DNA from: Eledone cirrhosa
Lineage: Eukaryota
DNA: 64,000 bases
Assembly (NCBI GenBank): GCA_964016885.1
Contig: OZ024740.1
Coordinates: forward strand, 26,722,001 to 26,786,000
Reading direction: 5' to 3'
Below are positions 34,992-35,481 of the stretch, piece by piece (positions within the stretch are counted from its first letter, which is position 1; the number at the start of each line of letters is the position of its first letter). The notes beneath the pieces were generated by a model. The model saw only the letters and a program-made list of their open reading frames with translations. It ran no database searches and was not told where the DNA came from. The translations under genes were made by a program, and so were the position numbers.

Positions 34992-35481
34992 GTGAGAAAA
35001 ACCACAGACCCTCCATCTCAACTCACCTTTTGAAAAGCAGAAGAACTGCGAAACCAGTAAAGGAACCAAATAAATATATATATTTTAAAAAAAATAAGAC
35101 TTCAGTTGCATTTTCGATTTCATCCCTTTTTCTTCATACTTCCACTCGTGTAGGACACCTCGGTCATTTTTCATTTTGTAAAAAAAACCTCACTTTCTAA
35201 TATATATATATATATATATATATATATATATATATATATATATATATATATATATATATATATATATATATATTAGAAAGTGAGGTTTTTTTTACAAAAT
35301 GAAAAATAACCGAGGTGTCCTACACGAGTGGAAGTATAAAGAAAAAGGGATGAAATCGAAAATGCAACTGAAGTCTTATTTTTTTAAAAATATATATATT
35401 TATTTGGTTCCTTTACCGGTTTCGCAGTTCTTCTGCTTTTCAAAAGGTGAGTTAAGATGGAGGGTCTGTGGTTTTTCTCAC
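34992..35481. mobile_element. Tail-to-tail inverted pair of family P5 units around a (TA)n tract
   Basis: 34992-35200 is the inverse of about 35273-35481. (TA)n lies in the centre and on both flanks. Confidence 0.85.
35410..35447 (-). ncRNA. Minimal type I hammerhead motif with U3-A8 covariant core
   Basis: Minus strand reads CCTT-TTGAAAA-GCAG AAGAA CTGC-GAA-ACCGGT-A-AAGG. Copies at 35026-35063 (+) and 9890-9924 (+). Confidence 0.7.

What the first reader, a model, noticed from the sequence alone, without database searches (positions are those of the whole stretch)
35026..35447. Very small hammerhead with a U3-A8 compensatory core (UUGAAAA)
Three copies (9890, 35026, and 35410 on the minus strand) read CCTT-TTGAAAA-GCAG..CTGC-GAA-ACCGGT-A-AAGG, with small differences between copies. 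The core replaces the C3-G8 pair with U3-A8 and so keeps Watson-Crick pairing. The motif is only about 38 nt and has a palindromic stem III. A standard CUGANGA search would miss this family.
Basis: partly seen in the sequence, partly recalled or inferred. Interest (0 to 1): 0.75.

Follow-up and report, generated by a model that had tools for sequence, protein, structure and literature searches.

The report
Penelope retrotransposon mini-hammerhead, U3-A8 core
The three motifs are end-pieces of a very abundant Penelope-type jumping gene and carry a tiny hammerhead RNA motif whose U-A core swap is already published; it likely cuts only weakly and as a pair, because most genomic copies begin at the predicted transcription start and only a small minority at the predicted cut site.

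Summary
In detail: three copies (9890+, 35026+, 35447-) of a 35-38-nt type I hammerhead motif with a U3-A8 core. They are not a free-standing family. They are short pieces of the pseudo-LTR/5' leader of a young Penelope-like retrotransposon (RT + GIY-YIG, Neptune/Nematis-type linker), with 13,927 motif matches in the genome. U3 and A8 are present in 10,013 of 10,108 matches. A U3-A8 minimal hammerhead in Penelope pLTRs is published (PMC4209133), as is natural U3-A8 covariation (PMC3088659). Added here: 45 of 100 copies start about 70 nt upstream of the predicted cut, 30 nt below a TATA box, so most templates were likely uncut. A minor peak at the cut site (19 of 38 (TA)n-flanked short copies within -2..+1) hints at some cleavage in vivo, but microhomology confounds it and head-to-head junctions do not show it. 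The named copy at 35026 has a broken stem III palindrome. Cleavage is untested. The scan noted U3-A8 Penelope hammerheads and cut-site scars before, on other DNA of this and other genomes. Verdict: new member of a known kind.

The parts
35026..35063 (+). Minimal type I hammerhead motif, U3 (35030)-A8 (35035); predicted cut between 35059 and 35060; stem III ACCAGT, palindrome broken (likely CpG decay)
   Evidence: stem III self-duplex +1.4 kcal/mol vs -8.3 for ACCGGU
35410..35447 (-). Intact minimal hammerhead motif, U3 (35443)-A8 (35438), palindromic ACCGGT; predicted cut between 35414 and 35413
9890..9924 (+). Hammerhead motif of the older TACTT subfamily: 3-bp stem I plus A.G mismatch, 2-nt loop II
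34990..35205 (+). pLTR / 5'-leader copy of the Penelope-like element, from the inferred transcription start to the distal 3' end (with 69-nt tail); no TATA box, so likely promoterless
35270..35483 (-). Second leader copy, tail-to-tail with the first; 5 substitutions between the arms
9857..9998 (+). Third leader copy, ending at the proximal 3' site (no tail), flanked by (TA)n
35201..35272 (.). Central (TA)n between the two 3' ends; further (TA)n at 34933-34991 and 35484-35614 (likely target microsatellite)

Best explanation
The three motifs are copies of the minimal type I hammerhead motif in the pseudo-LTR of a young Penelope-like retrotransposon, with U3-A8 fixed in the family; the motif is predicted to cut only weakly and as a dimer, and the window copies were likely reverse-transcribed from uncut RNA. 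Shown by sequence: the 214-bp unit lies about 1 kb after the stop of an RT/GIY-YIG ORF and, in tandem, directly before the ATG of ORF1; copies have one main 5' boundary 30 nt below TATAAAA and two fixed 3' ends 69 nt apart at (TA)n. Inferred: Pol II starts at CC|AGATG; the motif lies at +39..+76 of the transcript with the cut after +72; the element's RT starts internally at the two 3' sites and copies back to the RNA 5' end, giving thousands of promoterless leader stubs. Two motifs pairing through ACCGGU would occasionally cut and remove the capped first 72 nt, leaving a minority of copies that start at the cut. The window copies are likely inert: no promoter, one broken palindrome, and a read-through transcript would fold into one long hairpin.
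For: Loci found with the 214-mer continue upstream into a GIY-YIG ORF. Pfam RVT_1 E=1.3e-6 (28.7 bits, just under the 29.6 cut-off) and GIY-YIG E=3.1e-6. Near-full element L227 with ORF1 409 aa and ORF2 775 aa. 13,927 motif matches, 0 for the reversed control. U3+A8 in 10,013 of 10,108 and 80 of 80 aligned copies. Descriptor chance 4 of 50,000. An unrelated 316-bp tandem repeat in the same genome has the same U3-A8 core with other stems and a double change in stem III (ACATG/CATGT vs ACAAG/CTTGT). 5' ends: 45 of 100 at -75..-67, 6 of 100 at -3..+4 of the cut. TATAAAA at -30 in 19 of 23 longer copies; 3' ends at two sites in 84 of 100. Among 38 (TA)n-flanked short copies, 19 start at -2..+1, 8 exactly at 0, 4 of these with non-repeat letters in front. 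Literature: PMC4209133 (min-HHRs in pLTRs, U3-A8 variant, weak dimer cleavage); PMC11167929 (two internal RT starts give the tail; unprocessed RNA is the main substrate; protein-assisted HHR).
Against: No cleavage assay and no RNA data. Stems are no more conserved than flanks, and the core excess disappears at A/T sites (p=0.29). 44 of 80 copies belong to a subfamily with only 3 Watson-Crick pairs next to the core in stem I, and 4 of 80 share C11.1-to-G, which breaks G10.1-C11.1. Only 27 of 80 copies carry the intact 4-bp-stem motif. Folding z-scores are not significant (-0.17 to -1.22). The cut-site peak overlaps a TA microhomology with the target. It is absent from head-to-head junctions: 7 of 100 at 0 by hand count, 1 of 30 by script. 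The samples of 100 are the first matches on contig C1 and include both arms of one insertion, so they are not independent.
Confidence: 0.8

Rival explanations
1. The motif descends from a pLTR hammerhead but is now catalytically dead in this family and is carried along passively; the element transposes without any cutting.
For: Most copies come from uncut RNA. Stems are not conserved above flanks. An older subfamily spread with a weakened stem I, and some copies share a broken 10.1-11.1 pair. In vitro, HHR mutants do not affect insertion (PMC11167929).
Against: All 11 core positions are fixed across subfamilies that differ in flanks and stem I. The younger subfamily (1.6% pairwise divergence) has the better 4-bp stem I. 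There is a small peak of 5' ends at the cut site.
Confidence: 0.13
2. The motif is an efficient ribozyme that cuts tandem transcripts into unit-length (possibly circular) RNAs, which are the normal templates for transposition, as proposed in PMC4209133.
For: A pLTR-ORF-pLTR transcript holds two motifs that could dimerise (L227, L031).
Against: Neither end of most copies lies at the cut: 5' ends pile up about 70 nt upstream and 3' ends about 80 and 149 nt downstream. No close direct tandem among 21 close pairs in 100 motif copies.
Confidence: 0.04
3. A chance look-alike in an A/T-run-rich repeat (CTTTTGAAAAG is itself a near-palindrome).
For: U3 and A8 lie inside T and A runs; no covariation within the family; a competing CUUUU/AAAAG hairpin appears in longer folds.
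Against: 4 of 50,000 shuffles match. It lies where Penelope hammerheads are reported to lie. Independent U3-A8 families exist in the same genome.
Confidence: 0.03

Closest known systems
Minimal hammerheads (min-HHR) of metazoan Penelope-like elements, including the U3-A8 variant of Schistosoma mansoni Cercyon (Cervera and de la Pena 2014, PMC4209133; parts 1-2 of 4 read, figures and supplements not seen)
   Same: Type I topology in the pLTR, short helix I (4-5 bp), small palindromic helix III, G10.1-C11.1, U3-A8 instead of C3-G8, thousands of mostly solo or inverted truncated copies, predicted dimer cleavage.
   Different: Helix II is 4 bp here (7-8 bp in S. mansoni) with no extra base after A9; the motif is homogeneous and has at least 13,900 copies in one family (about 1,300 heterogeneous hits there); the host element is Neptune/Nematis-like by its linker.
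PAc (Poseidon of Anolis carolinensis) hammerhead and tail mechanism (Frangieh et al. 2024, PMC11167929; parts 1-2 of 4 read)
   Same: Two fixed 3' ends defining a tail, AT-rich targets, copies made mainly from uncut RNA.
   Different: PAc has C3-G8, its HHR overlaps the start codon and its RT starts lie inside the ORF; here the motif and both 3' ends lie upstream of the ATG, the tail is 69 nt, and a minor peak of genomic 5' ends lies at the cut (no reads at the cut were found for PAc).
Natural U3-A8 hammerheads (Perreault et al. 2011, PMC3088659; section 8 and passages read)
   Same: Same covariation, stated there to be active in vitro.
   Different: That section does not place them in Penelope pLTRs; the motif here lacks a stable monomeric stem III.
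Canonical C-terminal-EN Penelope-like elements of the Neptune/Nematis type (Craig et al. 2021, PMC8557442; passages read)
   Same: RT, CX2-5CxxC linker, GIY-YIG with CCHH; (TA)n targets; inverted truncated copies; tail; ORF1 may be separated by a frameshift.
   Different: No tree was built, so Neptune vs Nematis is not resolved.

Membership tests
Minimal type I hammerhead of PLE pLTRs | Core NUGANNA / GAAA / UH with Watson-Crick 3-8 pair | tested here: met
   UUGAAAA..GAAA..GUA; U3+A8 in 10,013 of 10,108; 80 of 80
Minimal type I hammerhead of PLE pLTRs | Helix I of 4-5 bp and helix II closed by G10.1-C11.1 | tested here: met
   Met in subfamily A (36 of 80; pair probabilities 0.7-0.8); subfamily B (44 of 80) has 3 bp plus an A.G mismatch
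Minimal type I hammerhead of PLE pLTRs | Short palindromic helix III allowing a dimer | tested here: met
   ACCGGU duplex -8.3 kcal/mol; not met in copy 35026 (ACCAGU, +1.4); 96 of the first 100 matches have ACCGGT
Minimal type I hammerhead of PLE pLTRs | Location in the pLTR of a PLE | tested here: met
Minimal type I hammerhead of PLE pLTRs | Covariation or selective conservation of stems | tested here: inconclusive
   None within this young family; different stems around the same core in an unrelated 316-bp repeat
Minimal type I hammerhead of PLE pLTRs | Self-cleavage (as dimer) | not testable with these tools
   Only indirect: minor 5'-end peak at the cut, absent
Penelope-like element, C-terminal EN | RT followed by GIY-YIG endonuclease | tested here: met
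   Pfam RVT_1 (just under cut-off) and GIY-YIG on L034 ORF
Penelope-like element, C-terminal EN | pLTR, inverted 5'-truncated partners, tail, microsatellite targets | tested here: met
   20 head-to-head pairs of 21 close pairs; two 3' ends in 84 of 100
Neptune / Nematis clade | CX2-5CxxC linker before GIY-YIG | tested here: met
   C-GRSN-C-GT-C in ORF2; motif per PMC8557442
Neptune / Nematis clade | Placement in RT phylogeny | not tested
   No reference set was in hand
Non-LTR retrozyme | Non-coding head-to-tail tandem units, each with a hammerhead | tested here: not met
   0 direct tandems among 21 close pairs; the family has coding members

The most novel reading that the evidence does not exclude
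The genome holds a two-peak fossil record of this element's RNA: a main class of copies starting at the capped transcription start and a 1-2% class starting exactly at the hammerhead cut. The U3-A8 mini-hammerhead would then be a deliberately leaky ribozyme that does cut in the germline but spares most templates, and its in vivo efficiency could be read from copy ends and compared between U3-A8 and C3-G8 families of one genome.
Probability: 0.4. Interest if true: 0.55.

Novelty: new member of a known kind. Interest (0 to 1): 0.3.

Why it matters
The motif class and the core swap are published, so the finding as written is ordinary. Its use is as a test case. What Penelope hammerheads do is still open (PMC8557442, PMC11167929), and this family is young, homogeneous, has about 14,000 copies and near-intact coding members. 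Start site, cut site and RT start sites can all be read from copy ends, and cleavage can be assayed on a 38-nt RNA.

Tried and rejected
Rfam scan: no hammerhead match, only microsatellite and hairpin miRNA noise. A 'UUGAUGA' look-alike upstream of the ORF in L031 is a chance junction of an inverted ORF piece with a truncated pLTR; rejected as a U3-G8 variant. Search for a C3-G8 sister family with a CC/CG-type stem III: 54 matches against 204 for the control, none forming a family with this element. Sequencing runs: no RNA holder listed. Four contig runs were laid; they look like genomic DNA, show no splice joint or RNA end, and their variant table is not quantitative (it misses the ACCAGT variant), so it is not used as evidence. 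A possible intron GTGAG(34992)..TAG(35153) around the motif could not be tested and would leave a 4-nt first exon; not adopted. Retrozyme reading rejected. Folding z-scores uninformative. The subfamily divergence step failed and was redone. Paper searches: 'U3-A8' + hammerhead gave only PMC4209133; C3U/G8A and U3A8/C3G8 spellings gave none; hammerhead + Penelope or retrozyme + octopus gave no description of this family. Lunse et al. 2017 (PMC5785218) and PMC5850863 are not held; their content and the unseen supplements of PMC4209133 may already list this or related motifs.

Full report
Observation. The motif is present three times, at 9890-9924(+), 35026-35063(+) and 35447-35410(-), against 0 matches in 100 shuffles. 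Read as a type I hammerhead it gives stem I CCTT/AAGG, core U3-U4-G5-A6-A7-A8-A9, stem II GCAG/CTGC, G12-A13-A14, stem III ACCGGT and A17. Only the minus copy is intact. The 35026 copy has ACCAGT, whose self-duplex is +1.4 kcal/mol against -8.3 for ACCGGU. The 9890 copy has ACTT and a 2-nt loop II. A relaxed descriptor hits 4 of 50,000 dinucleotide shuffles of the 216-nt leader and gives 0.02 hits per shuffled window, against 2 observed. Rfam finds no hammerhead. The two copies near 35 kb are the arms of one 98% palindrome, 34933-35540, around a (TA)n tract.

What it belongs to. The window lies in a 3.0-Gb animal genome; octopus-like is my inference from size and repeat content. The 214-bp arm has many 95-99% identical copies. 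In 8 of the 30 loci returned, homology continues upstream. Following it leads to a GIY-YIG endonuclease and an RT about 1 kb before the motif (Pfam RVT_1 E=1.3e-6, just below its cut-off, and GIY-YIG E=3.1e-6). L227 holds a near-complete 4.9-kb element: truncated 5' pLTR, ORF1 (409 aa), overlapping ORF2 (775 aa), 3' UTR, pLTR. The C-X4-C-X2-C linker and (TA)n targets match the Neptune/Nematis type in PMC8557442 (passages). The 3' half of the motif matches 13,927 times with 0 for the reversed control; a downstream anchor matches 16,369 times.

Fixation and conservation. With positions 3 and 8 left open, 10,108 places match; with U3 and A8 required, 10,013. In the first 100 downstream-anchored copies on contig C1, 80 cover the motif, and all 80 have U3 and A8. 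Substitutions: core 9/879, stems 41/1417, flanks 67/2299; core vs flank p=0.001 overall but p=0.29 at A/T sites only. Two subfamilies exist: A (ACCTT, 36 copies, 1.6% pairwise) and the more diverged B (TACTT, 44 copies, 7.1%) with a weaker stem I. No compensatory stem change was found within the family, so the family itself shows fixation in its source elements, not selection. Outside support: an unrelated 316-bp tandem repeat carries UUGAUAA with stem II GCTT/AAGC and a stem III that varies ACATG/CATGT vs ACAAG/CTTGT; a further decayed family has GATG/CATC.

Copy ends. Of 100 copies chosen by an anchor downstream of the cut, 45 start at -75..-67 relative to the predicted cut, 29 reach further upstream, 26 start between -65 and +22, and 6 of these lie within -3..+4 (two of the 6 are rearranged). 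TATAAAA lies exactly 30 nt before the A of CC|AGATG in 19 of 23 longer copies, so the main boundary is likely the transcription start (inference). 3' ends fall at two sites, +80 (33) and +149 (51) of 100, the Penelope tail that PMC11167929 traces to two internal RT starts. Close pairs are head-to-head in 20 of 21 cases; the window pair is the one tail-to-tail case. Following a lead from earlier scan notes, I tested for 5' ends at the cut. Among the 38 distinct loci in the first 100 of 217 matches of (TA)n-flanked short copies, 19 start at -2..+1 and 8 exactly at 0 (p=1e-6 against a uniform null, which ignores the TA microhomology at -2/-1); 4 of the 8 have non-repeat letters in front. Head-to-head junctions show no such peak: 7 of the 100 listed (of 190) at 0 by hand count, in a flat spread over 26 positions, and 1 of 30 by script. 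The scar is therefore suggestive and small, about 1-2% of copies.

Mechanism. Shown: anatomy, fixation, boundaries. Inferred: transcription from the TATA promoter in the pLTR; motif in the 5' leader, about 170 nt before the ORF1 ATG; internal RT initiation copying back to the RNA 5' end, yielding promoterless stubs in (TA)n. Predicted from PMC4209133 and PMC11167929: little monomer activity, weak dimer or protein-assisted cleavage that would remove the capped first 72 nt and is not required for insertion. The window copies are likely inert; a read-through RNA folds into a -380 kcal/mol hairpin that pairs the motif.

Comparison and novelty. PMC4209133 (parts 1-2 of 4) reports minimal hammerheads in pLTRs across animals and explicitly a U3-A8 variant with about 1,300 hits in S. 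mansoni. PMC3088659 (section 8) reports natural U3-A8 covariation and prior in vitro activity. Also seen: PMC6765202 and PMC7229834 (passages), bioRxiv 10.64898/2026.07.22.740005 (part 1 of 5). My searches found no description of this particular family, but supplements and Lunse et al. 2017 were not seen. Earlier scan notes describe U3-A8 Penelope hammerheads in this and other genomes; none matched this sequence. Verdict: a real feature, new member of a known kind, interest 0.3.

Noticed in passing
L227:3742-3832 (-), same overlap in 8 distinct loci: ORF1 and ORF2 of the element overlap by about 90 nt with a T_TTT_TTA heptamer and a stop just before the ORF2 frame in all copies seen: candidate programmed -1 frameshift. 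Frameshift-separated ORF1 is noted for PLEs in PMC8557442.
   Followed up: partly
L262, L272, L286, L307, L308: 316-bp tandem, retrozyme-like repeat with a full type I hammerhead, U3-A8 core and compensatory stem III change; no BLAST match to the Penelope element.
   Followed up: partly
L143-L172: 466-469-bp tandem repeat with a canonical C3-G8 hammerhead and stem II GTTG/CAAC vs GATG/CATC covariation; the pattern has 10,076 matches against 293 control.
   Followed up: partly
L292-L300: Old, decayed AT-rich family with UUGAUAA or UUGAAAA core and GATG/CATC stem II; stem I not recognisable.
   Followed up: partly
window 34992-35153: GTGAG at the 5' boundary and a polypyrimidine tract ending in TAG|G downstream of the motif resemble splice sites of an intron that would contain the hammerhead; untested, first exon would be only 4 nt.
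   Followed up: partly
window 3948-4820 (-): Open frame resembling the endonuclease-proximal region of another Penelope-type family (recalled resemblance; no Pfam hit).
   Followed up: partly
window 13270-24300 and 43000-54200: Large satellites with 83-bp and 46-bp units.
   Followed up: no
window 1895-2283, 11664-11754, 26531-27040, 35864-37913, 39250-39590: Further near-perfect palindromes or inverted repeats, possibly other fold-back insertions.
   Followed up: no
window 54816-57630 (+); 30627-32143 (-); 27776-28411 (-): Broken LINE-type endonuclease/RT frames and other retroelement-like ORF remnants (identified by eye).
   Followed up: no
window 35647-35800: tRNA-like SINE-type sequence directly after the (TA)n/(GA)n tract flanking the palindrome (recalled resemblance).
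   Followed up: no
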